Of a stretch of DNA of 64,000 nucleotides, positions 4,686 to 63,602 are shown piece by piece. The stretch lies in NCBI GenBank assembly GCA_964016885.1, contig OZ024743.1, positions 153,078,001-153,142,000 on the forward strand. The letters run 5' to 3'. The notes below the pieces were generated by a model, which saw nothing but the letters and a program-made list of their open reading frames with translations, searched no databases and was not told the DNA's origin. Numbering within the stretch: position 1 is the stretch's first letter; every line of letters begins with the position of its first letter. This DNA is from Eledone cirrhosa. Taxonomy: Eukaryota. A program made the translations under genes and the position numbers.

Positions 4686-4878
4686 TATTTTTTTTTTTTT
4701 CTACTTTTGGCACAAGGCCAGCAAATTAACCAGTGTATTACTGGTACTTTATTTTATCGACCCCGTAAGGATGAACGGCAAAGTTAACCTCGGCGGGATT
4801 TGAACTCAGAATGGCAAGGGCCGTAACTCTATGTGTCAAAGCATGGCGTCCGAGCCTCTACCGATACTGCCAATCCAC
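4686..4878 (-). mobile_element. tRNA-derived SINE family A, second tandem copy
   Basis: Near-identical to 4483-4669; flanked by actgaattgtaaata on both sides. Confidence 0.9.
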
Positions 4879-6368: not shown

Positions 6369-6533
6369 AGGGTCGGACGCCATGCTTTCCAGCATAGTTA
6401 CATCCCTTTATGATCTGAGTTCAAATCCTGCCGAGGTTGACTTTGCCTTTCATCCTTACGGGGTCGATAAAATAAAGTACCAGTAATGCACTGGGTGATT
6501 GCTGGCCTTGTGCCTAAAGTAGAAACAATTATT
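6369..6533 (+). mobile_element. SINE family A, 5'-truncated
   Basis: Family A body and gtagaaacaattatt tail; attattta on both flanks (possible TSD). Confidence 0.9.
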
Positions 6534-6544
6534 TAACAGCTGAA

Positions 6545-6960
6545 ACTGAAACTACTGAGTTGAACAGACTCCACTCTCTTTCAATGTCCTTAGATTGTTC
6601 AGAGAGTTCTCTGAAATTTGGATGCAAAGGTATCCACATACCTGGTCCTAACCACCTTATCAGCCAGTACTGTTCACATTATCCTGTAGATTGAACTGGA
6701 CCTGCAGGTTTTGTGGGTTTCTTGGCTGTAGGCTGTCTGAGGCTGCAGATGACTAGATGGTCATCAGTTGATAGCTCAGTCAATCTCTTAACATCAATAT
6801 CTAACACAGAATTGAAGAGATCAGAGACAACAACAAAATCAATTACTGATTTCTATCCCCAATTTCCTTTATACCATGTGTATTTATGGATGGATCTTTG
6901 TGCTGGAAAAAGGTGTTTGTAATAGAGAGCCCATTACTGGAACAGAAGTTTAATAAGGCT
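6545..6960 (-). mobile_element. RTE-clade LINE fragment (APE domain, Expander/Rex3-like)
   Basis: Minus-strand motifs ITNTFFQHK, HKYTWY, SVIDFVVV and TELSTDDHLVICSL, with frameshifts. Confidence 0.7.
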
Positions 6961-7184
6961 TCTCCATTTATATTTAGATTGGATCGCTGTTCCTTCCAAT
7001 TACTCCTTTCCATGTTATGTGGTCAGTGACAACATGTACATTGAAGTTTCTCATTAGCTTGGCTTGGAAATAAGAATTCCTTCTTCTATTTGCAGTACAT
7101 GCAGGCAGAGACAGTAAAAGTATCCAACGTTAAGACATTGAAGGACGTTGGTGTTAAGCTGGCATCTGTCTTTTAAAAGATGTC

Positions 7185-7436
7185 TAAAGTTTGTCTTGAG
7201 CCCAGAGGCTCATCAGGCTGGTGCTTATGTGACTGAGAGAACAGGATTCTTCGCTGGGCAAGATTCCAGTCCATCGCTGGGTTAAACCCCCAGCTATTAC
7301 TGGTACTCATTTTCAGCTGAGTATACTAGAGCAACATGAAATGAAGTGTTTTGTTCAAGAAAACAATTCACAGCCAAGTCCAGAAATCGAACCAATGATA
7401 TTATGATTGTAAGTCCAACACCCATGTGCCTCCACA
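7185..7436 (-). mobile_element. tRNA-derived SINE (family B)
   Basis: Reverse complement matches 2341-2617, including B box ggttcgatt and 3' end ggctcaagacaaacttt. Confidence 0.75.
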
Positions 7437-9229
7437 ATCTGACTTTAGATCAGCAAATATTCTGGCAGACTATCTGCTAACTTTGTAAATTGTCCCCACC
7501 ACACCTGCTATCAGGAACTCATCTTGGGTTCTTCTCTCTTCTTTAGAGAGGTGCTTCCTCACAAGGAGCAGAGAATACTTTGCTGATCTTCTAAACCTGG
7601 TCACATCTTCTGATGAGGGGTGAAAGAGCCCTCTTGTTTATGTTTCATCATCGACCACCCACACATCTGACCAACTTCAGTAATTGCCATCTCCCAGATT
7701 TCATCCTTGAAACTTTGGTTGACTCATGAGTGTGGTGCAAAATACTTCCTCAAAATGCTAGAGTGGGGTCCAATCACACAACTAGGCCATTTTAACACTT
7801 CTAATAAATATAACAAATTTTACACATTTTTGGGGATACAGTACTAAGAATTTTTCCATATAGTTCTGAAATTTTGTATGGAAGTTCTACTGTATTCTTA
7901 GAAAATTACTGAATAGCCTGAAGGAAACAATCTCACTCCTGTTCCCCTAAATTCAGAGGAGATAAAGAGTCATGTTGTTGGCTCTGGCTTTGCTGAAGGG
8001 AAGAAACAGAGTTAAGTGCACTGTTCAAAGACAGAAGGTCATCTGTTTTGATCTCATGACCTATGATTTTAGCTTCTGGTATCTTGATCATTGAACTCTT
8101 GTATAAATAACATTTTATTGAAACTAACTTGATATAATTTAAAGACATTGTAAAAACACCTGTATATGTATTAACCAATGTTGGTATCAATATGTTAATG
8201 AAATGGATGATATATATTTGGTGAAAATAATTACCAAAGTTGTAATACAGCAGAACACATGGGAAATAATGAATATGTTGAAATATTGACTGTATAAACA
8301 GCACAGGACATAATATTTAGAAGGGAACAAGCAGAAAATGTTGCATCATTTTGAATTTAATATATGAACTATAAACATGCTGAGAAAGAAACTGTAGTTT
8401 TTATATAAGTAGTACAAATAAATAAGTCTGTGTACTGATAAAAAAAACCTTCACCATCAAATTTGTAGTGATGTAGACTTCCAGCATTCTATCAGGGCAG
8501 AGTGGACCACCCACAGGTGTGAGCTATGTGACTTTGAAATGTCCATTGTGTTTCTCTTGCCATCCACTATTGGTACCATAAGGCAGCTTGCACCTGCATG
8601 CCAGAGAGCATTCCCCAACACTGTCTAGGCCTACATCATTAGAGTAGTGATGTTTAAGTACTCATATTGTTATTATACACTAAATACGTTGAGTAAAAAC
8701 TACTACTGTGGCAAATGGATATGTAAGTGAGATAACTATTTAAAATGGCACATTATAATTTTAAGTATATTTTGGTTGCTATTTCTAACAGGTTGAATGA
8801 CTGCAAAGAGGCTATCATGTTAGTTAACATATGAACATGTATGAAGTATAGACGATGTATATTAATGCCAAAATGATAGAAATAATTAGGTGAAAGAAAT
8901 CTTAAAATGATGTAGATAAATCTGATATAAAAAAGTAGAATTCTTAGATGAAATTTTACAGGATAATATAATTAAAAAACTTCTCAGTGTCTATTGGATG
9001 AAAGATAAAAGAATGTTCAACTGGTGGTGATGGTAAGGCTGATTGTAGTTTTTATCAAAAACTAGATATTAATAATATTATAAAGAAATAAACTAGAAAT
9101 TAATTATATCTACCATAGGGATATTGAAGAAACTTTACCTTCACATAGGCAACATAGGGTAGATTAGTTTCATGCAACATCATATTTATTCATTTAATCA
9201 AATAAATGTACAGGGACCAGCTGTACAAG

Positions 9230-21221: not shown

Positions 21222-21265
21222 TTATATATATACAACTAATATATATATACAACCATTATATATAT

Positions 21266-23033
21266 ACAACTAATCAGAGAGAGAATTGACCTAGATGAAA
21301 TGCAGTTCGGGTTTGTGTCAGGCAAAAGTACCACAGACGCTCTTTTCATTGTACGACAACTACAGGAGAAGTACCTAGCTAAAGGTAAACCCCTCTACTT
21401 AGCTTTTGTCGACTTGGAGAAAGCCTTCGACAGAGTCCCCCGCTCCATTATCTGGTGGGCTCTTAGAAAACTAGGCGTTGACGAATGGCTTGTGAGAGCT
21501 ATACAAGCCATGTATAAAGAAACAGTCAGCAAGGTTAGAATTAACAACGAATATAGTGAAGAGTTTAGCGTAAAAGTTGGCGTCCATCAGGGCTCTGTTC
21601 TCATCCCCCTACTATTTATTATTGCCCTTCAGGCTATAACAGAGGAGTTCAAGACCGGCTGCCCATGGGAACTCCTATACGCAGACGACCTGACACTCAT
21701 AGCGGAATCAATGGCCGAGCTAGAGAAGAAATTCCAAACATGGAAGCACGGCCTAGAATCAAAAGGCCTTAAAATTAACCTGGCTAAGACTAAAGTTCTA
21801 GTTTGTAGGAAAGAAAATAAGGCGGCGGTCCCTTCTGGGAAATGGTCGTGCTCGGTGTGTAGGAAAGGCGTAGGTAGAAACTCCATTTTATGTCCTAAAT
21901 GCAAAGTATGGGTGCATAAAAGATGTAGTGGGATCACAGGTAAGCTAACTAAGAACATAGATTTTACATGTGGCCCGTGCTCTGGTGCAATAAGTAGCAG
22001 CAAGTGCCCACAAAATACTAGCTCTTTCAATTGCGCAGAGGGTTCTATAGAAATAGTGGACAGTTTCCGTTACCTGGGTGATAAAATCAGCAGTGGGGGA
22101 GGGTGCTCTGAAAGTACAGTAGCTAGAGTCAGAACTGGTTGGAAAAAGTTCAGAGAGCTTATACCACTATTAGCTGCTAAAGGGTTCTCCCTAAAAATGA
22201 AAGGCAGGTTGTACGATGCCTGCATACGAACAGCAATGTTGCATGGCAGTGAGACCTGGGCATTGTGTGCAGAGGATATACGCAGACTAGAGAGGAACGA
22301 AGCTTGCATGCTCCGCTGGATGTGTAACAGTAATATACGTGAACGGCAAAGCATAAACGAACTAAGGAAAAAATTAGAAATAAGAGGGATCAGATGTTGT
22401 TTACTCGAGAGAAGGCTACGTTGGTATGGACACGTGATGCGCATGAAAGTCGATAGCTGTATAACAAAGTGCAGGGCAAAAAAGATAGACGGTAGCCACG
22501 GAATAGGCAGACCTAGAAAAACCTGGGACGAGCTGATAAACTCCGACCTCACACACTTACACCTCTCCAAGACAATGTCACTGGGCCGAGACCTTTGGCA
22601 GTACTCAGTAACAGAGAAGACCCGCCTTACCTAAATACATAGTAAAACCTACTACAGCCAGTAGGCATCTCTAACAAAATACCCCCCCCCCCCCGGTCCC
22701 ACCTCCCCCACTCCATCCACGCCACCCCGTTCAATGTAAAGTTGTGTTGGTGCCACACCATCCAGGCCGAAACAAATGAGATCGTGTAGGTGTCACGACA
22801 AAAAAACACACAGTCCACGCTGTAATGTGGCCGTGTAGGCAACACGGTAAAAACCTCCCAGACCCACACTGTAAATGTGGTTGGTGTTAGGAAGGGCATC
22901 CAACTGTAGAAAAATGCCAGACAGTCCTATGCGAGCAAGACAATCACTCTTGCCTCAAGTGGGACTACCCCCGTCCAAACCCATGCAAGCGTGGAACACG
23001 GACGTTAAACGTTGATGATGATGATGATGATGA
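21266..23033 (+). mobile_element. RTE-clade LINE, 5'-truncated, open 444-aa RT ORF (21300-22634)
   Basis: QFGF, AFVDLEKAFDRVP, GVHQGS, LYADDL, FRYLG, GSETW, RLRWYGHV, GRPRKTW; ggacgttaaacgtt(GAT)n tail. Confidence 0.95.
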
Positions 23034-33789: not shown

Positions 33790-36368
33790 GTTTAGTAAGA
33801 CATCCTCTCTAGTGTTGGTGGCATGAATAAAAGCACCCAGTCCATGCTGTAAAGTGGCACTGGTGTTAGGAAGGGCATCCAACCAGTGTATCAATGCCAA
33901 AACAATTATGAGCACGGCAACAAATATATATCGCAAAAACTGCGTAAACAGCAATACCACTAACCATGTTAGGGCTGCGCACGGTAGTGGGGTGGCTGGT
34001 GCGGCCATGTGCGAGAACCCCCCGACCGTCTTCAAGCAATCGCACTACAGGAAAAGGAACAACAAAAATATGAGGACGTCGCATCTCAGAGTTGCTACAC
34101 TTAATGTTGGCACTCTAACAGGTAGATCTGGTGAAATAGCGGAGATGTTGGAGAGAAGGCATGTGGATCTGTGCTGCGTGCAAGAGGTGATATGGAGAGG
34201 TGCCTCTGCAAGACTAATTGCAGGCAAACATCTTAGTTATAAACTTTTCTGGGTAGGTTATGATGATGGGTTAGGGGGAGTAGGCATTTTCCTGGCTGAG
34301 AGATGGATCAACAAGACAATAGAGGTAGTTAGAGTTAATAATAGAATAATGAAGCTTAGTTGTAGGCAGGAGACTACTGACAATCATCTCTGCCTATGCT
34401 CCCCAGGCAGGCCTAGGTAAAGAAGAGAAAGACTGCTTTTATGAGCAACTTTTACAGACAGCTGCAATGACAGAGGACGGAGACATCGTTATGCTAGCAG
34501 GGCACTTCAATGGTCATGTTGGACAGCTCCAGGATGGTTACACTGGGGTACATGGTGGGCACGGGTACGGCTGAAGAAATGAAGAAGGAGTGAGACTTCT
34601 TGAATTTTGTGATGCAAGTACACTGACCATTTTCAACACTAACTTCTAGAAACCTGCCAACCACCTAATAACCTACAAATCAGGTGAGCACATAAGCCAG
34701 ATTGACTTCTTACTAGTTAGGCAGCGGGACAGGCAGATGGTGTCAAATACCAAGGCATACCCTGGGTAAGAATGTACCCCACAGCATAGGTTAGTCGTTA
34801 GTGATATCTCAGTAAGCAAGAGACAGAATGAGACACGCATCATCAATCAAGCTATATATAGTCATACCAAAAGACTGGTGCAGTAATATTGTCATAAATT
34901 GCTACAAAGGTAAAGGGGATGCTCTGGAGAGGAGCAATTATAGGGGTATTAAACTGATGGATCAGGTTATGAAAGTGGCAGAAACGGTCAAACTAGATGT
35001 GATGCAGTTTGGTTTTGTGCCTGGGAAGAGTACAACAGATGCCCTCTTCTTGGTGAGACAATTACAAGAGAGGTTGTTAGAGAAGAATAAGCCACTATAA
35101 TTAGCTTTTGTTGACCTAGAGAAGGCCTTTGATAGGGTACCCAGATCTGTCATCTGGTGGTCTCTAAGGAAACTAGGTGTTGAGGAATGGCTTGTGAGGA
35201 CAGTGCAAGCTTTGTACAGAGGTGCTGTAAGTAAAGGAGGGTAGTGAGGAATTCCAGATACAAGTAGGAGCACATCAGGGTTCGGTCCTCAGCCCGCTCT
35301 TGTTTATTATAGTTCTCCAAGCCATAACAGAGGAGTTTAAGACTGGCTGTCCATGGGAACTTCTCTATGCTGACGATCTGGTTCTTATAGCAGAATCAGT
35401 AGAACAGCTAGAGAATAAATTCTGGCTATGGAAACAGCAGTTGGAAGCAAGAGGACTGAGAGTGAACCTAGCTAAGACAAAAGTGTTGATGAGTAGAAAA
35501 GAGGACAAAACTCTGATTCCATCAGGGAAATGGCCATGTTCGATATGTAGGAAAGGAACTAGCATTAATTCTATAAAATGCACACAATGCAGATCCTGGG
35601 TACACAAGAGATGTAGTGGGATAGCAGGCAAACTAACAGGTAGGGAGAAATATGTATACAGTAGATGTACAGGGAAATTAGACAGTAGAAGTCGCATTGA
35701 TAGACACATTTTTCAAATGCAGGCGGGTGCTATAGAAGTGGTGGATAGCTTCCGGTACCTAGGAGATCAGATTAGCATGGGAGGGGGTTTTCCGAGGCCA
35801 TAGTATCTAGAATAAGGACGGGTTGAAAGAAGTTTAGGGAGCTGCTTCCGCTGCTGACGAAGAACGGTTTCTCCCTGCATACAAAAGGCCGGTTATATGA
35901 TGCCTGTGTGAGGAGCGCGATGCTGTATGGTAGTGAGACTTGGGCAGCAACTGCAGAGGATATGCGACGGCTGGAGAGAAATGAGGCAAGCATGCTCCAT
36001 TGGATGTGCAATGTCAATGTGCGTGAACGACGCAGCATGGATGTGTTGAGAGAGAAACTGTGTCTGTGAGGGATAGAATGTAGTGTGTGAGAGAGGAGAC
36101 TGCGGTGGTATGGAGATGTGATGCGCATGGAGGATGACCGATGGGTGAAGAAGTGCCAGGAAATGACAGTTGAAGGAACACGTGGTAGAGGTAGACTATG
36201 AAAAACATGGGCGGAGGTGGTGAGAACAGACCTTAGATCGCTGAAGCTCACGGTGGAGATGACAAAGGACCGTGACAAGTGGAGAGATGCTGTGCTGAAT
36301 AAGATCTGTCCCACCCTTGCAAGCAGGGAAAAGCGGACGTAAAATGATGATGATGAATGATGATGATG
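33790..36368 (+). mobile_element. RTE-clade LINE with 5' region, APE and RT, internally deleted
   Basis: LRVATLNVGTLTG, CCVQE and GGVGI (APE) jump near 34810-34860 to IPKDW..YKGKGD..NYRGIKL; LYADDL; 3' end gcggacgtaaaa(TGA)n. Confidence 0.92.
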
Positions 36369-43000: not shown

Positions 43001-44260
43001 TCAAATAATTTCATATTTTAAAAAAACATTCACACTTACACATATAATAGTTTTAGGTAAAAATATATCATTTCCCCAGCTGAACTAAATATCCCAGTGA
43101 ATGCGATTTCCCTCAAGAATAAGAAGAAAGTCATGTTTCTGTTGGTCATATTCCTTATATATCATCATTATCATCATCATCCATTTGTCTATGTATCCAC
43201 ACACACACATGGTTCGGTAATCAACCTGGTGATCTTTGTGACACTGGAATCCTGGAAATCATTTATGCCAACGAACATATTTTAAACAAAAACTCTGGCG
43301 CAATTTTGGTTGTAAACATAAATTGTATAAAACATTTTTATATTACAGCCCAACATTATATCCTAATCGACACTATGCAGATGATATATGTCATGATTTG
43401 ATAGCTATAAACAATCAAAATTTATGCTACGGGATGTCTCACCTATGTTCCTCTTTCTACACTCTCCATCCGTACATATTATGCTATAAATTGCACTCCT
43501 AGTATTGCAGTTATTTGTAGGCATAATTTGCAGACTATACAATTCTTATTAGTGAAGGGGGTTTTCTCAAAAGGATATATTCAACTAATTAAGGCTTATA
43601 TATATATACAACAGGAGGAAACATTATAGTACCACTGATGATGTTGCAGATGTGCAACAAAGGAAATTTGATAGACTATATATATATATATATATCTGTA
43701 TTTTTAACCGTTGGTCAATCAATGATAAACGTTGATTGCCAAATAAATTAACTATGGAGAAATAAAAGATACAGTGGTGAAAACGAACCAAACAGTGAGT
43801 GTCTTCTGTTATTATTTCTGGCAATATTATTACAACAATATGACCCTACCCAAGTATAACAATATATATATATATATATATATGAAAGTGGATGAATATT
43901 TCAACAGGCACTAAGTACTTGTAGAAATATGCAAGGTGTTTATAATATTTGTTGTTCGATGGTACTAATTTGAGATATATATATATATGTATGTGTGTGT
44001 GTGTGTGTGTTTGTGTGTATACATATATATATATATGCATATATAGGTGTGTATATATGTGTATATGCATATGCAGTGCCCGAACATGGCCTCAGCCGGA
44101 TGGCTAGAACAGGTAAAAGAGTAAAATAGTATATATGTATATGTGAGTGTATAATTTTCATGCACTATATTTTTGTTAATATATGCATCCACACTGGTCA
44201 GCACATATATATGAACCTAAATCTGAAAACATTACTATTAATGTTTTCATTATTATTATT

Positions 44261-44625
44261 AGAGGAAAATCAGGGTGGAGAGGGAAGTGCTGCCTTTCAA
44301 CCAGTTTGTTGAAAGGTGGGTGAGAGAGGCAGGCATGGTCCGTGTGTATGGGCCTGCCTTGAGCATACACCTGTAGATTGGAGTAGACAGACTGGGAGAA
44401 GGCACCTTGCCCTAGCAGACAAGGTGACTGCGGCTTTTGTGGGATTTCTACACAAGTGACCCTTAGAGTCTCCTCAACTTTGGGGAAGTTATGTTTGTTT
44501 TAAATGTTTATTTTCTTAGTCTCTTTTATAAATTTGATTTTACACAAGGAAAAACCCACACTGTATTGTCCTGTAACATCTTTAATGTATCTTAATGTGA
44601 GCCCTTTGTAGCTTATAAAGAAATC
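44261..44625 (+). mobile_element. 5'-truncated L1/Tx1-type LINE related to 56274-62168
   Basis: Aligns with 61811-62168 (aggaaaatcagggt.gag..ggaagtgct; actgggaga; ataaagaaa); tcattattattatt on both flanks. Confidence 0.85.
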
Positions 44626-44637
44626 ATTATTATTATT

Positions 44638-44818
44638 GGTAGAGGGTCTGATGCCATGCTTTGCAGCAAAGAGTTATGGCCCTTTATGTTCAAATCCCGC
44701 CGAGGTTAACTTTGCCTTTCATCCTTACGGGGTCGATAAAATAAAGCACCAGTAATACACTGGGATAATTGCTGGCCTTGTGCCCAAAGTAGAAGCAATT
44801 ATTATTATTATTATTATT
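44638..44818 (+). mobile_element. SINE family A with (ATT)n tail
   Basis: Family A body; starts directly after the (ATT)4 that closes the Tx1 fragment. Confidence 0.9.
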
Positions 44819-45361
44819 ACTATTTACCATTATTATCAATCTATAGCTGCAGAAGTAAATATTTTGAAAACGTTACAACCAAATATTGCCTTTAGAAAAT
44901 CAAAAGACTTAATGGTAGCCTGTGAGGACGTTCTCTTGAGATGAGTGAACTATATACATGGAGAATTATATCATTATGGGAAGTGGGAATAACAAATTCT
45001 TGCTATGAAAAAATCAGGAAACAAATATTTTTTATAGAATAGCCAACTTTTTTCCAGCTACCATATATTGAAACTGATCTTAATAGTTGTAAAATGATAA
45101 AGATATTGAAGGTATTAATAATATTTGCTTAGTAGTTTGCCACCTCTACAGCCATTAGGAATCAAACAATGGTGATATTTCCTACTTTATCTATTTCATA
45201 GTTAAGCAATACATGAAGTGATGCAATTTATTGAAAATATTAAAGTATACTCTTCAGCATGATAGCAAATTCTCAGCTTAGTAGAGCAAATCAGAGCCTA
45301 TGTTTTGCTATGCTTCAGTGGCAAACAAAATGACCAACTCCTTGTAACACTGACGCAAAAT

Positions 45362-51814: not shown

Positions 51815-51878
51815 CTTCTTCTTCTTCTTCTTCTTCTTCTTCTTCTTCTTCTTCTTCTTCTTCTTCTTCTTCTTCTTC
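51815..51878. repeat. (CTT)n microsatellite
   Basis: Direct reading. Confidence 0.95.
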
Positions 51879-52348
51879 CATCTACCATACTAAGAACACC
51901 TTTCTTCCCTGGGCATGGATACATTGAAGCTCCGATGTCTGACAACTAACTTGTTAAATACCCGCAAGATTATTAACCATCTTTCCAACAACAACCCTGA
52001 GCAACTTTTTGAATTCCATGTGTCTAACACACGTGGGCATGCCTACAAAGTCAGAAAACAGCACAGCTCCCATGACTTTTGTAAACATTTTTTCACGTTC
52101 AGAGTTGCTGAAGCATAGAACAAACTACCTGCATCAGTTGTTAGCTGGTGAGACACTGCATCCTTTAAAACCTCCATGGTTCCTGAAATTTGCCAGCATA
52201 GCACCTGATATTCCCCCTCCATACAAATGCCCACATGTATATCATGACTCATACACTGTTCACTTTCTTGACATTTGTATATTATTCTATGTACTATATA
52301 TGCACCTTTGGTGCATTGTAGTGCACCTGAGCACTGTACACAACACTT

Positions 52349-52350
<2 letters not shown>
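51879..52350 (+). mobile_element. CR1-type LINE 3' fragment ending in (ATT)11
   Basis: NTRGHAYK...KHFFTFRVAEA*NKLPASVV corresponds to the CR1 C-terminal TRGH..FF..RV...WN.LP motif. Confidence 0.8.
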
Positions 52351-52383
<33 letters not shown>

Positions 52384-52384
<1 letters not shown>

Positions 52385-54053
52385 TTTGAGTCTCAGTCAT
52401 TGATGTTATTTAACTGGAAAGTTTGTTGAAATGAATATCCAGCCGCTACCAGCGGTCTCAAATATTCAGGAGGTGTCGGAGGGTTCTTGCTGTTCCCAGC
52501 AAGCATGCCTTTTGAAGTGTTCCAAAAAGCGGGGCTGGACTAATCTTCTTTAACCATCCTTGGAAACTCTTTGAGATAGTACTTCATGGCAGTTCCAAAT
52601 CCTTTTTACTTCCAACTTTAAGTCCTGGTATCGGTTAATTTTCTCCCTCTTCTTTTCTTGCACTCTCGTGTCAAATGGCAGGCTACATCTACAATCAGCC
52701 ACAATCTTTTTTCCTTGTCCAAAACCACCAGGTCGGGCCTATTGTGTTCTAATTTCTTGTCCGTCTGTATCCTAAAATCCCAAAGTACCTTCACCTGATC
52801 GTTTTCTATCACCGACTCTGGCTTATGCTCATACCACTTCTCAGAATGTGGTAAATTGTTTACTTTGCATAGGTACCAGTGGATCACCCTGCCCATCACA
52901 TCATGTCTCCAGCCTTTATAGTGAGTCTGGGCTAGGTGTTTACACTCGGATACAATGTGAGCCACAGTCTCCTCTCTCTCTCCACAGATCCTACACAGTG
53001 GGCTAACCTCCTCCTTGTAAATATGGTGTTTCAGCCACTTCGTTTTGAGGGCCTGCTCTTGTGCAGCCATTAGCATTCCTTCTGTAGCCTTTTTAAGGTC
53101 TCCTCTTTTCAACCAGTTCCATGTCTGTGGATCTCTAAATTCAGTTTTCTCAAAGAAGGTACTATGAAGGGATTTTTCATGAAGGTTGCTCTTTCTCCTG
53201 GTTGTTATTTCCTCCTTGGACATCCTCTGGTCTATTGTCCTCTCCTTCAGTACAATTCTGAGCATTGGCTCCCTACTATCAGTCACGTATTTGTGTAGGT
53301 TGTTTTTCTCCATCTAAACACAGTCCTCTATGCTGATAAGACCTCTTCCACCTTCAGATCTCCTTAAGTAGAGTCTATCGACATCACTCCTCTTGTGGAA
53401 CATGTTGTAGATAGTCAATAATTTTCTAGTCTTCCTATCCATTTCTTTTTGTTCAGCATCATTCCATCTAAGAATTCCCGCACTGTACCTAATAATAGAC
53501 ACAGCTCGGTAATTTACTGCACTTATGGCATTTCTACTGTTCAGATGTGACTTTAATATGCTCCTTATTCTCCGAATGTATTCAGATCTTATCAATTCCT
53601 TCATTTTTTTGTTCTTGATGTCATCTGCCTCCAGAACACCTAAATATTTGTATCCTTCTTCAGTGTCAATTTCCTTTATCATCTCACCTGTTGGTACCTG
53701 GATTACGTTGCTTCTGCTCAATTTACCCCCTCTTCATCACAAGGACTCCACACTTACTAATACCAAATTGCATACATATATCATTGCTGAAAATACGGAG
53801 AGTGTCAACAAGCACATCCAACTCCTTCTCACTCTTCCTGAAGAGCTTAAGATCGTCCATGAAGAGGAGGTGATTGATGGTAAGCTCTCCCTTTCCCAAC
53901 TTGTATCCTGCTCTCCCTTTTCGCAGTATAATGGTCAGGGGGATCAGGGCAAGGATAAGCAACAAAGGGGTCAAACTATCTCCCTGGAAGATACCTCTCT
54001 TGATTTCCACGCCTCCCAAGGATTCTCAGCCCGATGTTAACTCTGTTTTCCAG
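52384..54053 (-). mobile_element. R4/Dong-type RLE LINE, 5'-truncated (Dong-A)
   Basis: RGIFQGDSL, HLLFMDDLKL, YKYLG, GGRGL, CRICG..ET..HIVSEC, RHD, WDFRIQTD..NRPDL; (TAA)n on both flanks in element sense. Confidence 0.92.
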
Positions 54054-54069
54054 ATTATTATTATTAATA

Positions 54070-54915
54070 TTATAGTTGCATTTATCTTGCTTTATGTTCA
54101 TACGAGTTATCACCAAGTCACAACCAGTGACCTCAAGACACAACAAGGTCCGCCATGTTCAAGAAAGATCATACATACACACACATGCATCTTTAGGTGT
54201 TTAGACTTGTGATGTACTTATATTGACAGAATCTTCCTTAGTATATGGGCAGTTCCCATTAGTACTATCTTTTGTATTTCTCCTATATGTGGGTTTCCTG
54301 GGATTTGCGATAAGTAATCATTAGACCCCTTAGGTATCAGTCCTAGAGCAGCTACAACCAGTGGTATTGTTTTAGTTTCCAATTTCCACCTTTTTCCAAT
54401 TTCTATCTCCAGGTCCTTATACTTGCTCAATTTTTCAAATGTTTTTATAGATATATTCCTTTCTATTGGAACAGACATATCAATTAGCAGGCGTACCCTC
54501 TTTTTAAAGTCATTCAGTATTATATCAGGTCTATTTGCATCTATTTTTCGGTTTGTTTGGATGCTAAAGTTCCACAAGATTGAGATGTGATCTCTTTCAA
54601 GTATGGGAGGTGGTTGATGCTCCCACCAATTCTTTTGATGGGGCAGGTCAAAATGCTTACACACTATCCAATGTATGTATTGTGCAGCTCTGTCATGCCT
54701 GTTTAGGTATTCGGTTGGAGCTATAGGACTGCACATTGAAATTATATGATCAATGGCCTCTGGTTGCATAATGGGTTGCATCCATTTTTTATTATGTTGG
54801 CTTGGTAATTTTTTGTTGGCAGACACTGATCTTGTGCTGATATAATCAGTCCTTCAGTCTCCGATTTCAGTCCAGAGGATGCCAACCACTGATGGGTTAA
54901 AGTTTTGTCAACATC
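54070..54915 (-). mobile_element. Second R4/Dong-type family 3' fragment (Dong-B)
   Basis: LKSETEGLIISAQDQ, HIISMC, RHD, NRPDI, KLSKYKDL, GTAHILRKILSI; ATT tracts on both flanks. Confidence 0.9.
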
Positions 54916-54930
54916 ATTATTATTATTATT

Positions 54931-54991
54931 ACACTGGGTAATTGCTGGCCTTGTGCCTAAATTAGAAACAATTACTATTATTATTATTATT
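54931..54991 (+). mobile_element. SINE family A 3' stub
   Basis: acactgggtaattgctggccttgtgcctaaattagaaaca plus ATT tail. Confidence 0.85.
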
Positions 54992-54994
54992 GTT

Positions 54995-55991
54995 CTTTGA
55001 GTCTCTGTCATTGATGTTAGTTAACTGGAAAGTTTGTTGAAATGAATATCAAGCCACTACCTGCCACCTCAGATATTCAGGACGTATCAGAGGCTTCTTG
55101 CTGTTCCCAGCAAGCATGCCTTTTGAAGTGTTCCAAAAAGCGGGGCGGCGCCAATTTTCTTTAACCATTCTTGGAAACTCTTTGAGATAGTACCTAGTGT
55201 GCCTATGACAATGGCAGTTCCAAATCCTTTTTACCTCCCACTTTAAGTCCTGGTATCGGTTAATTTCCTCCCTCTCCTTCTCTTGCACTCTCGTGTCATA
55301 TGGGCAGGCCACATCTACAACCAGGCCCAATCTTTTTTCCTTGTCCAAAACCACTAGGTCAGGTCTATTGTGTTCCAGTTTCTTGTCTGTCTATATCCTA
55401 ACATTACACAGCACCTTCACCTGATCGTTTTCTATCACTGAATCTGGCTTATGCTCATACCACTTCTCAGAATGTGGTAAATTGTTTACTTTGCATAGGT
55501 GCCAGTGGATCACCCTACCCATCACATCATGTCTCCAGCCTTTATAGTGAGTCTGGGCTAGGTGTTTACACTCGGATACAATGTGATCCACATTCTCCTC
55601 TCTCTCTCCTCAGATCCTGCGCAGTAGGCTAGCCTCCTCCTTGTAAATACGGTGTTTCAGCCACCTCGTTTTGAGGGCCTGCTCATGCGCAGTCAATAGC
55701 ATTCCTTCTGTAGCCTTTTTAAGGTCTCCCCTTTTCAACCAGTTCCATGTCTGTGGATCTCTGAATTCAGTTTTCTCAAAGAAGGTACTATGAAGGGATT
55801 TTTCATGAAGGCTGCTCTTTCTCATTGTTGTTATTTCCTCCTTGGACATCCCCTTGTCTATTGTCCTCTCCTTCAGTACAATTCTGAGCATTGGCACCTT
55901 ACTATCAGTCACGTATTTGTGTAGGTTGTTTTTCTCCATCTGAACACAGTCCTCTATGCTGATAAGACCTCTTCCCCCTTCGGATCTCCTT
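54995..55991 (-). mobile_element. Dong-A second copy, 5'-truncated
   Basis: Aligns with 52384-53365, including the 3' end ctttgagtctc.gtcattgatgtta. Confidence 0.92.
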
Positions 55992-55993
55992 TT

Positions 55994-56183
55994 ATTGGCA
56001 GTATCGATGAATAGCGGTGGATTGGCAGTATCGGTAGACTTTGACGCATAGATTTACATCCCTTGCCATTCTGATTTCAAATCCCCCCAAGGTTAACTTT
56101 GCCTTTCATCCTTACGGGGTCGATAAAATAAAGTACCAGTAATGCACTGGGTAATTGCTGGCCTTGTGCCTAAAGTAGAAACA

Positions 56184-56273
<90 letters not shown>
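55994..56273 (+). mobile_element. SINE family A (duplicated head fragment) with (ATT)30 tail
   Basis: attggcagtatcg at 55994 and 56021; body to 56183; (ATT)30 at 56184-56273. Confidence 0.9.
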
Positions 56274-56484
56274 GGCGACCTACGTAGTAAATCGTATCAT
56301 CGTGAGCTCCGCAAAGGTTTGTTATTTCCGTTTGTTAAAAATTGCCATTTATGGAATTTTTTTTATTGTTAACTATATATAAGCACTCATACATTGTTTT
56401 TCGAAAAGGACACCCAAAAAGATTGGGGCCTTGTGCCCAAATTTTAAACTTTTATGATTATCAAAAAATTTCTTTGAAAAAAAA

Positions 56485-58495
56485 ATGGATAATTCACCAC
56501 TGCACCAAGCAGCTGAAAGACTTTCTCACAAATTAACACCTCACACCAACACCACCATTGTAAATGATTATACGTCTTCCAACACAAACAATTTAAGCAC
56601 GAGCAATATTTTAAATTTGTCTCAGGCAGACATTCATTTCCCGCCATTACCAATTACTGCAGGTGTTAAAGCCGCCACCACCACCACCACCGCGACAACA
56701 GAAACAAAAGGAAAAAATAAATCAACTCGTGATGTCGAAATATTTTCAACAAAAATGGACTCTCCCAAACCGACTTTCACTGACGTCACCACCACCACAA
56801 CTAAAACTAAAATTAATAATAACAAAAATAACGATAGCAACAACAACAACAATGACATTAAAAAAACCACCCTGAGTTTTGCCAGAGTAGCAAAACAGTG
56901 CGAAGCATTTACGGTAACTCAGGAGGATTTAGAAAATGCCAAACAAATGGTAAAGAAAGATGGGTACAGGGTCAGTCTCACCCCCCCACCCCACCTAATA
57001 AAATGGAGCATCGGCGCCTATGCACCGTGTCGTATCGAACAATAAATGTAAAATCGCGCCGAGTGGAACGGGCATCCGAGTCCCAAATCCAAAAAGCTTT
57101 GGGACATGTGTGGGCAAGAAAAACCCACATCAGACCTGGGCAGAAGTATGGAACCGTGGACGTGTTCTTTGAAACACCAGAGGAGGCTAGAGAACACTCC
57201 ATGGCCCCATTAAGAAGTGACAACTTCACACTCGTCCCAAGCTATTGTGGCCAGAGACTCGTAAAGATCAGGGTGACCCACGTTCCACCGGCCATCGAAA
57301 TTCCCTGGCTAATAGGGGCCGTCCTCGCCGGCATCGAAGCCAACACAAAGATAATAGCAATAGCAAAAGAAATGCAGGAGATCTGGTCCGGATCTGGGAT
57401 GGAGCTCCTGATCCAAGCGGACCAAAAAAGCATTGAGGAGTTCCTAGAGGTAATAGACCTCACTGACGGCAGCCACCTCACCGTAATTGTCGAGGGCAGA
57501 AGGCCTAGGTGTGTAGTTTGTGGTGAAGGAACCCACCTAAGGGCTTTCTGCCCTCAGGCTAAAAGGTTGAGGCCACCTCTCCTACCCACCCCAGTGACAC
57601 AACCATCAACACCACCAGTAGCAGAGATGGCAGCAACAACTGTAGCAGCAACAACAGAAGCAACTATAACAGCAACAACCCCAGCAACAGTAGCAAAACC
57701 AACACCACCACCACCAGCAAAACCAACACCACCACCACCAGCAAAACCAACACCACCACCACCAGCAAAACCAACACCACCACCACCCAACGCTTCAGAA
57801 CTAGCACCAGCGCCTACACCATCCACCACGCCACAACCAAAACCAACGCCTGTGGAGGATTTTCCACTCCCCGGCCTATCACAACTGGAGACAGATTGTG
57901 ACGACGAGGAGTGGGAAATGGTATCAGGAAAAAAAAAAGAAACCAAAAAAGAAAAAATTCTCTTCCTTCCCCCTCCAAAAACAAAATACAGAGGGAAACA
58001 AATAAATTAACAAACAAAAAAGTTAGGACAGATATGCCACCATCCACACCAGCATCACCAACCCCATCAACCCAAACACCAACACCATCACCATCATTAA
58101 CCCCAACACCACCATCACCTACACCACAAAAGTCACCAAAATGCGAAAGAGAAACAAACCCACAACAAACGCAAACAAAACAAAACAACCAAAACGATAC
58201 ACACTACACAGCATTAAATTTGAACAACAACCAATTATTACACTACATCCAACACAACACCAGCATCACAGAAAAAGATGACACAACAACCCACAAATTC
58301 ACACCACCTCCACACATACAAATCACTCGCATCACACAGAAAACGTACATGACACTAAAACAAAAATTCCCCAAAGACATCGGAGACTTCCGACAAGCAC
58401 TCTCCAGGAGGATTTATAAGGACATCCTTCCCGAGGAGGCCACAAGCAGTGAAAAGGATGGAAAAACCGTCCTTCCCCTACGAAAAGTAAGGTAA
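56485..58495 (+). pseudogene. Tx1 ORF1 (gag-like, CCHC zinc knuckle, Pro/Thr-rich), two frameshifts
   Basis: Joined from ORFs 56485-57045, 56898-58010 and 57911-58495; RCVVCGEGTHLRAFCP; shifts fall near a C-run (about 56985) and an A-run (about 57930). Confidence 0.8.
57693..57788 (+). repeat. 24-bp coding tandem repeat x4 (AKPTPPPP)
   Basis: gcaaaaccaacaccaccaccacca repeated. Confidence 0.9.
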
Positions 58496-58529
58496 GTGGT
58501 CTTTCCCATCTTTTCCACTCCATTTCAAC

Positions 58530-61500
58530 ATGACCTCACTCAGAAGAGGCAGCATAAATGCGCGTGGCTTGGGGTCGTCATGGAAGAAGGGCCACCTGCT
58601 CAACGACCTCAGGTCACTAAACATAGATGTAGTGGCCATCAGCGAGACCAGAATCTCCGAAGCACGGGCCTTCGCACCAATCTTCGGCGGCTACGATGTG
58701 TACGCATCTCCCAGCCGTCCGGGATCGGGGGGAGGAGTTGCTATGCTTTTTCGGAGAGGTTTGGATCTTGCCATACGGGCCACCTTCCTGGACCCAGAAG
58801 GTAAGTTGGTGGTGCTGGACGTGACCAGCGGAGAAGGGCAAGCTTTCAGGTTAGTGGCCGTCTATGCTTCCGGCGTCTGGAGACCTTTCTTGGAACGTCC
58901 CGCTCTTTAGTGTTAGTGGGCGACTGGAACGGGATCTTGGATGCACGCTGGGATTGTGTGGGATTAGTGGATAGGGAAGGAGGGTGCAAGAGTCTCACCA
59001 ACCTGCTCAGGCGTTTTGAACTGTCTGACAGGTACCGAATGGATTTCCCGAATGTACCAATGTGGACTTGCACAAATCGCATAGGGTCATCCAGATCATA
59101 TCTAGATAGAGTATTTTGTAGGGAAATGGATAGGTCTAGCATAGGTTGTCCACAATTCAAGATAGTCAGCTACACGGACCAAAAATTCGTGATCTGTGTG
59201 CTTGACTTAGATAGGCTTCATAGACGTGGACCCGGCTACTGGAAGCTAAACGCGTCCTTACCAGCGCGCAAGGCCTACAGAGACCGGATTAGCGAACTAG
59301 TTAAGCGGGCGTTGACGGGGGCCATCGTCAACAACAAGTGGTGGTTTGCTCTGAAAAGAGCAATTAGAATAGAGTCCATTAGGTTTAGTAAGGCTTTAGC
59401 AATAGAGAAAAATAGAGCAGAGGGAGAATAAGTTAGAAAATTAGACGAGGCGCTTAGTAAAGGCATCGCTACCGACGTACGTGCGGCGAAATTGGCCCTT
59501 GACCAATTCTTCAATGCAAAGCACGAAGGCTGCGTTGTCAGAGCTAGGGTGCGTGCTCTCAGACACGAGGGGACGAAAGCCGTTCAATGGGCCCGAGTGG
59601 AGGAGGCGCGTCGTGGCAACAAAGCCACGATCCGGTCTTTGCTGGACCACGACGGGCGCATGCTACTCGATCCCGGGCAAATGTGTGAAGCTTTTCAGCG
59701 ACACTTCGCTCAACTGTTCGGGGGCAGTGGCGGGCCGGATCGAGGGATGGACTTTAGTGTCTACCTCGACGGACTGCCGCGGCTTTCGGCCACTGAGGCG
59801 GAGTGTTGCGAAAAGCCGATAACAACCGCTGAAGTACGGGAGGCAATGACTGGCTGCACAAGGGGTAAATCGCCTGGTTTAGATGGTCTGCCCTATGAAC
59901 TTTACGTACAAATGCCAGACTTGTTCGGAGGCCTCTTGGTGGACGTCTACTGCAACTGGCAACAGAACGGGAGAATTCCCAGCTCTGTGAGCCGAGGATC
60001 GGTGGCGCTGCTGAGAAAGGATCCGAACAAGGGGGATAACATAGATAATTTTAGGCCCATAACTCTGCTAAACACAGAGTTCAAGATTTTGGCCAAGGTG
60101 CTAGCAAAGAGGTTGGCGCTTGTCGTTGGTGGTCTGGTGGGAGAGGCACAGACATGCGCCATTCCCGACAGATCCATCCACGACAACCTCCACCTCATGC
60201 GATACATCGTAGAGAGGGTAGCTAGGGAACCTGGCACGGGTGGGTCATTGATCAATTTAGATCAGTCGAAAGCTTTCGATAGGGTCGACCATCGTTACCT
60301 AGCGGCAGTCCTGAGGGCGGCTGGCTTTGGGCCCGTCTTCAGAGGTTGGATCTCTACCATGCACAGCGACATCTGCTCTGTAGTGAGAGTGAACGGTCAC
60401 CTTTCGGAAACGTTCAACATAATGCGCTCGGTCCGCCAAGGATGTCCCCTCTCGTCCCTATTGTAGGTATTGACTCTCGAGCCATTACTGCACAAACTGG
60501 AGACGCTGAGGGGGGTCCCGCGCGAACTAGGATGCGGAAGATCCGTGTCAGCATATGCGGACGATGTCACCCTAGTGGTGTCGAACGCCAAACACATCGA
60601 GGCGATCGGCACTACACTAAGAGAATACGAAGCGGTGACAGGAGCAATGATCAACCAGGAAAAGTCAGTGGGCCTGCAGCTCGGCACCTGGAGAGGCAGG
60701 TCCATGCCGTCCAACAGCGTCGTCGGGCGCTGGACGGACGGACCGGTTAAATTGCTAGGGGTCTGGTTCGGTCCAGACCTCCAGACGGACAAAAACAGGG
60801 ACGAGGTGACGAGCAGGGTGGCTTCTCTCACCCAGAAATGGGCCGAGAGGAAGCTATCCCTGAAAGGTCGAGCGGAGGTGGCTAACGCGTACATCGCGTC
60901 CGTCATCTACTACCGCCTGACCGTCGTACCTTGTCCTAAGCCCCGCCTGACTGCGCTGGAGCGTTTGCTCTTTCGCTTCTTGTGGAAGGGACGCGCTCCG
61001 ATGGTCAGGCGGTCCATCTGCTGTCAACACCCGCTACGTGGAGGGCTGGGCATGCCGTGGCTGATGATGCGCAGACACGCGCTCAGGCTACGACATCTCC
61101 ACCTCTTCCTCGACGGTGATCAGGTGTGGTCGCCGTTTGCTAGACACGTTTTTCCCCAGCTCGTCTCCTTGACGGAGCTGCAGTCCTGGGTCAAGCGAAG
61201 ACTGGGAGGGAGCGCTTGGAGACTGGAATGTCTTCAGGCGCTCACAGCCCTCGACCAATCGGGCAATGTGATCGGTGGAAACTCCACCTTGGCGTTCTAT
61301 AGGGGATTAGTGGAGGGTAAGAGCGACGACGTACTTGGAGAAACTCTAGGCGTCGACGAAAATCAACTAGCCAATCTCTTCGGAAGGACTTTCGGGCCGG
61401 GGCCTATGGACAACTTCCAGAAATCCCTGGCCTGGCAGTGCTACCGGGGTGCTTTGCCAGTTCAGGATAAACTCTACAGGCATGGAGGTGCCGTCAGCCG

Positions 61501-61926
61501 GGCATGTCCGAGATGCGCGCAGGGCGACGAAACCGTCCTGCATGCACTCGACTCGTCCAGTGTCCGAGCATTGCTGACTTGTGGGTTTATGTTGAACACC
61601 TGCTGTCACGTGTAGGACGGATCCAGCTATCAGCTGAGTCCATCGTGAGGATTGCCCTGCCCTCTTCCTTTAGCCGGGAAGGGCAAGCATTTTATATCTG
61701 TCTGGTGGCCATGGCGAAAGAGATATTATGGTGGACACGTTTGAAGGGGCTGAAGACGAGCACTTACCTCTTTGGTGATGCCCTGATTAACTTTTTCAAA
61801 TTTCATTTGAAAAGGAAAATCAGGGTAGAGAAGGAAGTGCTCTCTTCCCAGCATTTTGTTGAAAGATGCGTGAGAGAAGCAAGTATGGCCCGAATGAATG
61901 GGCCTTCTCTGAGTATGTGTCTGTAA
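58530..61926 (+). pseudogene. Tx1 ORF2 (endonuclease, reverse transcriptase, zinc knuckle), disrupted
   Basis: SINARGL, ISET, VGDWN, SYLDR, WKLN, SPGLDG, RPITLLN, LDQSKAFDRVDH, QGCPLS, AYADD, GGLG, CPRC..ETVLHAL..C; frameshifts near 58870 and 61550, stops at 59429 and 60464. Confidence 0.92.
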
Positions 61927-63602
61927 ATTAAAGGTGGAAAACTGGGAGAGGGCACTTGCCCTGGTGGTCAGGGTCACTGTGGTCTTTTAATGGGCTTTCT
62001 CCACAAATGTCCCTCGGAAGTCTCCCCCCTATTGGGGAATTTTTCTTTGTTATTTTATTACATCCTCTGTTTTTTACACGCAGAAATGCCCATTTGTACC
62101 GTCCTGTATTGTCCTGTACTGTCCTTAATGTCTACTTTATGTAAACCCTTGTGGTTAATAAAGAAAATATTATTATTATTATTATTATTATTATTAAATG
62201 TTTATTCTTTTCATTTAAATTTTATATATTAAAAAAAGAATTGGTTTCTTCATCCTAATTTATTTATATTAAATTAATATTACAAATATAGTCAGTTACT
62301 TCATTTTCCTAATCAGAAATATCTACCAAATTCCAAAGAGTGATCTAACTAATGAAGGACTATTTTGAAAGAAGTAAGATACACCTCACACATGGGCAAA
62401 ATTTCCACCACATTCAGATTTGAATCCACACACCTTGAAGTCCATATAAAAAATGGTTTAAACTTCAGTAAAAGAAAATGGACTACTCTCAGCTTCAACA
62501 ATGTGTTTTCCTGTTGTATGAGCAACAGGATAGCATACTAATTAATTGAATGTGTATGCGGCTGAGTATTCCACAGACATGTATACTTGGGTTTCTCTCT
62601 TGGGATCCTGTTCTGCTTTAAACTATTTTGGATTTCCTGGTAAATGCTTTTCCTATTTTATTTATATTTGACATCATTATTGACGACATTCATTAGTATT
62701 CTATATATTGTATGATTTATTTTCATTGTATTGAACTACTTCAAACAAATTTCCAAATTGTTTGTTTGGTGGTGGATTGACAGAATTGTTAAAGTGTCAG
62801 ATGCCGTGGGGCATTGATTCCAGCTTTCTTGCATTCTGAATTTTTGAGTGGAAGACTAAATCAGTTGCTTTGTTTAACAACCCCACCCTGTTCTCTGATT
62901 TTCTTTGGTTGTGTGCTTTTGAACCAGGTATCCAGTTTGAGGATAACTGCTTCTCTTGATCTTTTGTTTTGCTACCCATCATCTGAGATAACTTTAGATT
63001 CCATTGTATAAAACCATCCTTTTTAATGCATTTATTTTCAAATTTAAACCGTCCATCATAATTTTAAGTAAAAATCTTTTGTTAAATTATATTTCGAACG
63101 CTAGCTTATTCATGGAAAATTTAGTTATTTTACTCAATCTCTCCAAATTCTTGCTTATTAAAATAAAATCAAGGAATTGCATGAACAACGTATTTTTGTT
63201 AGGAAATGATAATGAAAAAGTTAAATAAAAACATCATATCTAGTGTATAAGTTGAAGATAAACTATTCATTTAATCAGCATACTAATTGTAGTCATCTTC
63301 TTATTATGAATTGCTATCTTAAGATTAATATCTTAAATATGTGGTCTCCATTTTTAAGATGAAGAGTTTGTTGGGGGCAAAATATTGTAGTAATATTGGC
63401 AGGTTAGGAAACTTATGGTTATACCTTTTAATTGGTGTGGTTATTTTTGTGTTGCAACAATTATTTATGGATAGCCAGAATTAGTTTTACATGGGTAAAA
63501 ACTATATGGCACAGGGTGAATTAATTGCACAAAGCATTCAGATCAAAAGATCAACATGTCAAACTGTAGCAAGCCTACTAGAATTGTGATCATACTGTTT
63601 AA

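What the first reader, a model, noticed from the sequence alone, without database searches (positions are those of the whole stretch)
51879..62195. 10-kb chain of seven retro-insertions joined by (ATT)n linkers with family-specific orientation
Order: CR1(+), (ATT)11, Dong-A(-), (ATT)4, Dong-B(-), (ATT)5, SINE stub(+), ATT, Dong-A(-), SINE(+), (ATT)30, Tx1(+), (ATT)9. No element interrupts another's body, and all junctions except 55991-55994 are ATT tracts. Dong copies always read (TAA)n; SINE, Tx1 and CR1 read (ATT)n. Established: Dong targets TAA repeats and some Tx1 families target microsatellites. Inference: a self-renewing landing pad in which every insertion regenerates the target for unrelated endonucleases (RLE and APE).
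Basis: partly seen in the sequence, partly recalled or inferred. Interest (0 to 1): 0.7.

Follow-up and report, generated by a model that had tools for sequence, protein, structure and literature searches.

The report
Retrotransposon pile-up on shared ATT repeats
Seven jumping-gene copies sit end to end here because, across this probably octopod genome, two unrelated kinds (Tx1-like and Dong-like) land in ATT/TAA repeats facing opposite ways, likely using the repeat tails that older elements leave behind; repeat-targeting is a known habit, but I did not find the ATT target reported for Tx1.

Summary
The chain is in the sequence as described: CR1(+), Dong-A(-), Dong-B(-), SINE stub(+), Dong-A(-), SINE(+), full-length Tx1(+), with ATT linkers. 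It is one case of a genome-wide pattern. 1,532 of 1,687 exact Tx1 5' ends follow a perfect (ATT)4. 32 of 54 Dong 5' junctions abut (TAA)3 or more, none the opposite strand. 57 of 85 Tx1/Dong tails directly touch another member; all 61 neighbours found follow the orientation rule. Corrections: CR1 does not target ATT (1 of 27 5' junctions); it only supplies a tail. The SINE prefers short ATTAT(T) sites and also lands inside other elements. The SINE ends in the same small hairpin as Tx1, with compensatory changes, so Tx1 likely moves it. Dong at TAA in molluscs, microsatellite-targeting Tx1, Tx1-moved SINEs and opposite-facing elements in one repeat (SART/TRAS) are all published. An ATT target for Tx1, shared with a Dong, was not found in eight searches. 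Reads could not confirm this locus. The scan has noted the same pattern at eight or more other places in this genome. New variant of a known kind; interest 0.45.

The parts
51815..51878 (+). (CTT)21 microsatellite directly left of the truncated CR1; link to the chain unexplained
   Evidence: 0 of 29 other CR1 copies have (CTT)2 or more at the 5' side
51879..52350 (+). 5'-truncated CR1-like LINE (last ~50 codons and 3' UTR); oldest member, likely the seed
   Evidence: longer copies carry CR1-type RT motifs (motif-to-clade link recalled); 19 of 221 substitutions against its 20 closest copies
52351..52383 (+). (ATT)11: CR1 tail and Dong-A tail, tail to tail
   Evidence: same junction type in 3 of 29 other Dong-A copies
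52384..54053 (-). 5'-truncated Dong-A (end of RT, CCHC knuckle, PD-D/ExK-type endonuclease), frameshifted
   Evidence: near full-length copies
54054..54073 (+). (ATT)4 plus degenerate units: 5' flank of Dong-A and tail of Dong-B
54074..54915 (-). 5'-truncated Dong-B (CCHC and endonuclease end, 3' UTR)
54916..54930 (+). (ATT)5 linker
54931..54970 (+). 40-bp 3' stub of the SINE, including the terminal hairpin
54971..54991 (+). ATTACT(ATT)5: SINE tail and Dong-A tail, tail to tail
   Evidence: same junction type in 14 of 29 other Dong-A copies
54992..55991 (-). second 5'-truncated Dong-A copy, 91% identical to the first
55992..56013 (+). junction without an ATT tract: TTATT, a 13-nt copy of the SINE head (55994-56006), 7 further bases
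56014..56183 (+). SINE of about 170 bp with a tRNA-like head (recalled box motifs) and a Tx1-like 3' hairpin
   Evidence: no Rfam match at threshold
56184..56273 (+). (ATT)30 between SINE tail and Tx1 head
56274..62168 (+). full-length 5.9-kb Tx1-like LINE (ORF1 with CX2CX4HX4C knuckle; ORF2 APE, RT, zf-RVT), broken by stops and frameshifts; youngest member
   Evidence: 9 of 516 substitutions against its 20 closest copies
62169..62195 (+). (ATT)9 Tx1 tail and right end of the chain

Best explanation
This is a stack of seven retroposon copies joined by ATT repeats, likely built by successive target-primed insertions of two unrelated repeat-seeking LINE lineages into tails left by earlier elements. 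Shown: a Tx1-like lineage (APE endonuclease) sits with (ATT)n on its sense strand, and two Dong-like families (restriction-like endonuclease) sit with (TAA)n on theirs, so in one tract they face opposite ways; CR1 and SINE copies end in ATT tails that Dong and Tx1 copies abut. Inferred: Tx1 first nicks the A-rich strand and Dong the T-rich strand; each insertion splits a tract and adds its own repeat tail, which leaves two usable targets, so stacks grow without any contact between the enzymes. Inferred: the SINE is moved by Tx1 proteins through a shared 3' hairpin. Inferred order here: CR1 first, the Dong copies next, Tx1 last.
For: Tx1 heads: 1,532 of 1,687 exact heads follow (ATT)4; 46 of 46 sampled full-length copies have 3 or more units; 6 of 13 truncated copies do too; 5' ends of six further Tx1-like families lie after ATT tracts (motifs u1, u2, u4-u7). 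Tx1 tails: 2,236 with (ATT)5 against 8 with (CTT)4. Dong 5' junctions: (TAA)3 or more in 14 of 27 Dong-A and 18 of 28 Dong-B, opposite-strand ATT in 0 of 55. Neighbours: 21 of 28 Tx1, 20 of 29 Dong-A, 16 of 28 Dong-B tails touch another member, against 4 of 29 CR1 tails and 4 of 300 random points; 61 of 61 follow the orientation rule. SINE heads in 800 kb of random DNA: ATTATT within 40 bp upstream in 36 of 74, AATAAT in 1 of 74, background 2.5%. SINE and Tx1 tails share a CUUGU loop with a 3-4 bp stem; the first three pairs hold in 92, 85 and 87% of 71 distinct contexts, with G-C/C-G and G-C/A-U exchanges between SINE and Tx1. Divergence from the 20 closest copies: CR1 8.6%, Dong-A 4.6 and 3.8%, Dong-B 3.4%, SINE 2.6%, Tx1 1.7%. 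Published mechanism parts: Dong at (TAA)n in insects, molluscs and cnidarians (PMC7998251, passages); Tx1 families at (TC)n, (TTC)n, (TTCC)n (PMC4494074, passages); SART and TRAS in opposite orientation in one repeat (PMC7265360, passages).
Against: No nicking or transposition assay; strand choice is inferred. 7 of 13 truncated Tx1 and 22 of 54 Dong 5' junctions lack 3 repeat units, so specificity is loose or the upstream tract is often lost. No target-site duplication outside the repeat was seen in 19 plus 17 two-ended Tx1 copies, and none flanks this chain. Tail-to-tail junctions obey the orientation rule partly by construction; only 19 of the 61 neighbours face the tract with a 5' end. The hairpin folds no better than shuffles in most cases (z from -2.1 to +0.8), and its count is anchored on the loop motif. 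Family samples are the best-scoring copies, not random ones. The order rests on short alignments, with no empty orthologous site. Reads do not bridge the junctions.
Confidence: 0.8

Rival explanations
1. The 5' (ATT)n of full-length Tx1 is largely part of the element's own RNA (read-through from the upstream tract), so Tx1 brings or lengthens the repeat instead of only finding it; its true nicking preference is a short ATT motif like the SINE's.
For: 46 of 46 full-length against 6 of 13 truncated copies have 3 or more 5' units (p = 5e-6). L248 and L257 have (ATT)22 and (ATT)10 upstream but one ATT followed by (CTT)n downstream. SINE tails in front of a full-length Tx1 have 6, 9, 12 and 30 units, while 2 of 107 random SINE tails reach 6. 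The SINE, likely moved by Tx1, uses short ATTAT(T) sites.
Against: No duplication of flanking sequence outside the 5' tract, which would prove carry-over, in 36 two-ended copies. Truncated copies L012, L030 and L028 have 18, 10 and 8 upstream units. Truncated Dong copies lose the upstream repeat about as often, so loss at truncation can explain the asymmetry.
Confidence: 0.3
2. Passive accumulation: elements insert without sequence preference and the chain reflects tolerance of insertions in gene-poor, AT-rich DNA plus each element's own repeat tail.
For: True for CR1. The window is repeat-rich (195 tandem-repeat rows).
Against: 91% of Tx1 heads at (ATT)4 against 0.1% background; strand asymmetry at 5' ends of Dong (0 of 55 opposite) and SINE (36 against 1 of 74); elements abut exactly at tracts.
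Confidence: 0.04
3. Misassembly: unrelated repeat copies were joined through ATT tracts by the assembler.
For: Short-read contigs do not bridge the junctions. All genome-wide counts come from one assembly.
Against: Three linkers are only 12-21 bp and one junction has no tract. Junctions fall at natural 3' ends and scattered 5' truncation points, with strand asymmetry and a family difference (CR1 excluded) that misjoins would not give. Both unique flanks are matched without differences by contigs of runs X4 and X5, which may be the assembled sample itself.
Confidence: 0.05

Closest known systems
Dong (Bombyx mori), DongAg, DongBg, Darwinula Dong1/2; R4 clade (PMC3812793, PMC7998251, passages read)
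   Same: One ORF of about 1,140 aa with RT, CCHC knuckle and C-terminal restriction-like endonuclease, no N-terminal zinc finger seen; (TAA)n on the sense strand at both ends. Dong-R4 families are reported active in Octopus vulgaris (PMC13282606, Table 1).
   Different: Here most tracts used are tails of SINE, CR1 and Tx1 copies, and the tract is shared with an APE-type lineage.
Kibi (TC)n, Koshi (TTC)n and crocodilian (TTCC)n/(TTTC)n Tx1 families (PMC4494074, passages read)
   Same: Two-ORF APE+RT LINE that sits in a microsatellite with the T-rich strand as sense.
   Different: Target is (ATT)n, in a mollusc; several families share it; sister families end in (ATCT)n-like repeats; 8 copies end in (CTT)n.
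SART and TRAS in (TTAGG)n of Bombyx (PMC7265360, passages read)
   Same: Two LINE families insert into one repeat in opposite orientations and stack there.
   Different: SART and TRAS are both APE-type and use a host telomere repeat; here the two have unrelated endonucleases and the repeat is dispersed and largely made of retroposon tails.
SINEU with Tx1-Mar in crocodilians (PMC4494074, passages read)
   Same: A SINE linked to Tx1 by shared target; tandem SINE insertions; target lies in another mobile element.
   Different: This SINE has a tRNA-like head, about 107 tails per 800 kb, and a shared 3' hairpin.
Octopus OK/OR1/OR2 SINEs (Ohshima and Okada 1994; seen only as a citation in PMC4758252)
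   Same: tRNA-derived octopus SINEs; OR2 is listed as a CORE SINE.
   Different: Identity with any of them was not tested; no reference sequence was available.

Membership tests
Dong / R4 clade | Single ORF with RT, CCHC and C-terminal restriction-like endonuclease | tested here: met
   Near full-length copies L277 and L278; RVT_1 and zf-RVT hits; closest homolog P0121 has a weak HSDR_N_2 hit over the nuclease (E 0.0036, below cut-off)
Dong / R4 clade | Insertion in (TAA)n with TAA on the sense strand | tested here: met
   32 of 54 5' junctions with 3 or more units, 0 of 55 opposite; full-length L055 and L088 have 5 and 8 units
Dong / R4 clade | N-terminal Myb/SANT-like domain, no zinc fingers (PMC7998251) | tested here: inconclusive
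   A W-rich N-terminal segment is visible by eye; Pfam gave no Myb hit for P0121; no profile-profile test run
Dong / R4 clade | RT phylogeny with named Dong/R4 references; 5' HDV-like ribozyme | not tested
   Homologs returned carry no names; no tree built; ribozyme not searched
Tx1 clade | ORF1 with zinc knuckle; ORF2 with APE, RT and C-terminal zinc domain | tested here: met
   full-length relatives of about 1,150 aa with PF03372, PF00078, PF13966
Tx1 clade | RT phylogeny inside Tx1 rather than L1 proper | not tested
   No named Tx1 reference among the 120 homologs listed; assignment rests on architecture, repeat tail and recalled motifs
Tx1 clade, microsatellite-specific group (Kibi/Koshi) | More than 20% of flanks are one repeat type (criterion in PMC4494074) | tested here: met
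   1,532 of 1,687 heads
Tx1 clade, microsatellite-specific group (Kibi/Koshi) | Target (TC)n, (TTC)n or (TTYC)n | tested here: not met
   2,236 tails with (ATT)5 against 8 with (CTT)4
CR1 clade | CR1-type RT and C-terminal motifs, short repeat tail, no target specificity | tested here: met
   Motifs in L104, L106, L112 (clade link recalled); 1 of 27 5' junctions at (ATT)3
Tx1-mobilised SINE | 3' end shared with the partner LINE | tested here: met
   About 25 nt with a shared loop and compensatory stem changes; the CR1 tail lacks it
Tx1-mobilised SINE | Same target preference as the partner | tested here: inconclusive
   Same strand and motif (36 against 1 of 74), but short sites: (ATT)3 in 12 of 74
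Tx1-mobilised SINE | Mobilisation in trans by Tx1 proteins | not testable with these tools
   Needs a cell assay

The most novel reading that the evidence does not exclude
An octopod Tx1 lineage both seeks and makes (ATT)n: its full-length RNA carries a 5' ATT leader, and its proteins spread a SINE of several hundred thousand copies whose tails seed new tracts, so Tx1 builds the main supply of targets for itself and for the unrelated Dong elements. That would be a self-amplifying, element-made niche shared by APE and restriction-like endonucleases.
Probability: 0.3. Interest if true: 0.65.

Novelty: new variant of a known kind. Interest (0 to 1): 0.45.

Why it matters
It gives a concrete reason for retrotransposon stacks and long ATT tracts in an octopod genome, where Dong-R4, Tx1 and SINEs are among the active families and where the annotation paper I read reports hotspots without discussing target sites (PMC13282606: no occurrence of 'target' or 'nested'). 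It adds a target to the Tx1 series, with sister families on other repeats in the same genome, which suits a study of how an APE endonuclease changes specificity. It names a likely partner LINE for a very abundant SINE. The locus itself has no sign of a host function.

Tried and rejected
Read support: Logan contigs of X1, X4, X5, X7 and X4, X6 break inside the repeats and bridge no junction; inconclusive. Target-site duplications outside the repeat: none in 19 and 17 (3 of 20 regions held no tail) two-ended Tx1 copies, none around the whole chain. The idea that (CTT)n(ATT)n heads mark Tx1 insertions into CTT tracts: rejected, since L122, L125 and L131 have ATT and no CTT at their 3' ends. CR1 as an ATT targeter: rejected. 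ARAGORN found no tRNA in the window and Rfam gave only three chance-level hits. Pfam did not recognise Tx1 ORF1 or a Dong Myb domain. No related genome is held, so no empty site could be compared. Rows dropped before counts: the window's own copy in each set; duplicates L027, L080, L250, L245 (= L138), L247 (= L141); Tx1 chimeras with another family's 5' half (L238, L239, L260); L233 (5' end not reached); L246 (full-length with an insertion, 8 units, not counted); L008 (counted as L148); Dong L037, L042, L067 and CR1 L104, L106 (5' end not reached); the SINE-derived satellite in L193.
Full report
Observation. The linkers are (ATT)11, (ATT)4 with a degenerate extension, (ATT)5, ATTACT(ATT)5, a junction with only TTATT, (ATT)30 and (ATT)9. 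A (CTT)21 tract lies directly left of the CR1. The window is G000:C4:153078001-153142000 in a 3.0-Gb assembly. The closest named relative of the Tx1 RT is an Argonauta hians protein at 76% identity, so the host is probably an octopod; this is inference.

The elements. The Tx1-like copy is full length (5.9 kb), with a knuckle-bearing ORF1 and an APE-RT-zf ORF2 broken by stops; other copies are about 97% alike in their last 1.2 kb. The three Dong pieces are 5'-truncated ends of two families whose near full-length copies have one ORF with RT, CCHC and a restriction-like nuclease. The CR1 piece is a 472-bp 3' end. The SINE is about 170-190 bp and occurs about 107 times per 800 kb of random DNA. 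Clade names rest on architecture and recalled motifs; no tree with named references was built.

Genome-wide test, Tx1. An exact 21-nt head occurs 1,687 times, 1,532 of them directly after (ATT)4; the background for (ATT)4 within 30 bp is 0.1%. Of 46 sampled full-length copies all have 3-27 perfect units upstream; of 13 truncated copies 6 have 3 or more (p = 5e-6). The tail is followed by (ATT)5 2,236 times and by (CTT)4 8 times. Six other motifs seen after ATT tracts begin further Tx1-like elements; a seventh (u3) showed Tx1 homology in 1 of 8 places and is unassigned. More distant Tx1 families end in (ATCT)n-like or no clear repeats.

Dong, CR1, SINE. Dong 5' junctions abut (TAA)3 or more in 14 of 27 Dong-A and 18 of 28 Dong-B copies and never (ATT)2 on the same strand. 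CR1 5' junctions have (ATT)3 in 1 of 27 (p = 6e-7 against Dong), so the CR1 tract is its own tail. SINE heads in 80 random 10-kb stretches have ATTATT within 40 bp upstream in 36 of 74 and AATAAT in 1 of 74; tails are mostly 1-3 units; short duplications starting with ATTAT are visible by eye in several copies; two SINEs lie inside Tx1 bodies.

Neighbours. Beyond the 3' tract, 21 of 28 Tx1, 20 of 29 Dong-A and 16 of 28 Dong-B copies directly touch another member, against 4 of 29 CR1 copies and 4 of 300 random points. All 61 neighbours follow one rule: Tx1, SINE and CR1 on the ATT strand, Dong on the TAA strand. Forty-two are tail-to-tail junctions, where the rule is partly automatic; 19 face the tract with a 5' end. 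The most frequent site of Dong-A is a SINE tail (14 of 29). The sets are the best-scoring copies, not random draws, but the random sample shows the same junction types.

SINE partner. The last 25 nt of the SINE resemble those of the Tx1 families (aligned). Both fold into a CUUGU loop on a 3-4 bp stem, weak by energy. Across 71 distinct contexts the first three pairs hold in 92, 85 and 87%, against 25-68% when slid by one and 6-35% by two, and the second and third pairs differ on both sides between SINE and Tx1. I noted the tail likeness before the look-up; the hairpin idea came from finding e1-10319827 and was tested here. Mobilisation itself is inferred.

Mechanism. By target-primed reverse transcription (established knowledge), an element with an (ATT)n tail primes on the A-rich strand and one with a (TAA)n tail on the T-rich strand, so the two face opposite ways in one tract. 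An insertion inside a tract leaves repeat on both sides and adds a tail, so the site stays usable. CR1 and SINE tails supply fresh tracts. Divergence from the closest copies (CR1 8.6%, Dong-A 4.6 and 3.8%, Dong-B 3.4%, SINE 2.6%, Tx1 1.7%) fits CR1 first and Tx1 last; the middle order is unresolved. No cooperation between enzymes is needed. Open point: the 5' tract of full-length Tx1 may be partly carried by the element (rival 1).

Assembly. Short-read contigs match both unique flanks but bridge no junction, so this locus is unconfirmed by reads. Short linkers and the family- and strand-specific pattern argue against misjoins.

Literature. Seen as passages: PMC3812793 (list of microsatellite-targeting LINEs, Dong at TAA), PMC4494074 (Tx1 targets, SINEU), PMC7998251 (Dong at TAA in most insects, molluscs and cnidarians), PMC7265360 (SART/TRAS; lead from finding e1-10353984), PMC3774820 (Dong ribozyme), PMC9115989 (octopus Dong and RTE), PMC4758252, PMC5786205. 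PMC13282606: first third of the text and passages. PMC4640811: search listing only. Eight searches returned no report of an ATT-targeting Tx1 or of Tx1 sharing a tract with Dong. The library lacks most subscription papers and Repbase Reports, where such families may be described; I opened no supplements, and the phylogeny figure of PMC4494074 with its target labels is not held.

Earlier notes of this scan. One search listed eight findings at other places in this genome with the same reading; they are unreviewed and are not counted as support.

Verdict. Real, systematic, and explained by known targeting behaviour. New in detail: the ATT target for Tx1-like families, its sharing with a restriction-like-nuclease element, and a likely Tx1-SINE pair.

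Noticed in passing
window 44249-44836: A second, smaller chain: (ATT)4, truncated Tx1 of another family (+), (ATT)4, 5'-truncated SINE (+), (ATT)7.
   Followed up: partly
window 51815-51878: (CTT)21 abuts the truncated CR1 with no matching tract at the far end of the chain; (CTT)n also lies next to ATT tracts at L122, L125, L131, L136, L173, L248, L257, in some cases beside what looks like a Dong-A 5' end. Origin unexplained.
   Followed up: partly
L193:4525-10000 (G000:C3:356564004-356574003): A tandem array of about 47-bp units made from the SINE head, over 5 kb long, starting after a SINE tail and ATT tract.
   Followed up: no
L166, L189, L212, L221, L225: More distant Tx1-like families end in (ATCT)n or ATATCT-like repeats instead of (ATT)n: a target switch inside one genome.
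   Followed up: partly
L238, L239, L260: Three copies join the 5' half of another Tx1 family to the 3' half of this one at the same point just before ORF2: a recombinant subfamily.
   Followed up: partly
L233: Tx1 copy with an inverted internal segment of about 2.3 kb.
   Followed up: no
window 21240-22634 (+) and 35231-35803 (+): Other LINE pieces with an RT followed by a PHD-like finger; not part of the chain.
   Followed up: no
window 23710, 47884; L034, L047, L234, L259: A recurrent unidentified repeat end holding (ATT)3 is also abutted by Dong and Tx1 tails: a further source of targets.
   Followed up: no
L220:-strand 4800-7630: Tandem repeat of about 565 bp, each unit with an (ATT)4.
   Followed up: no
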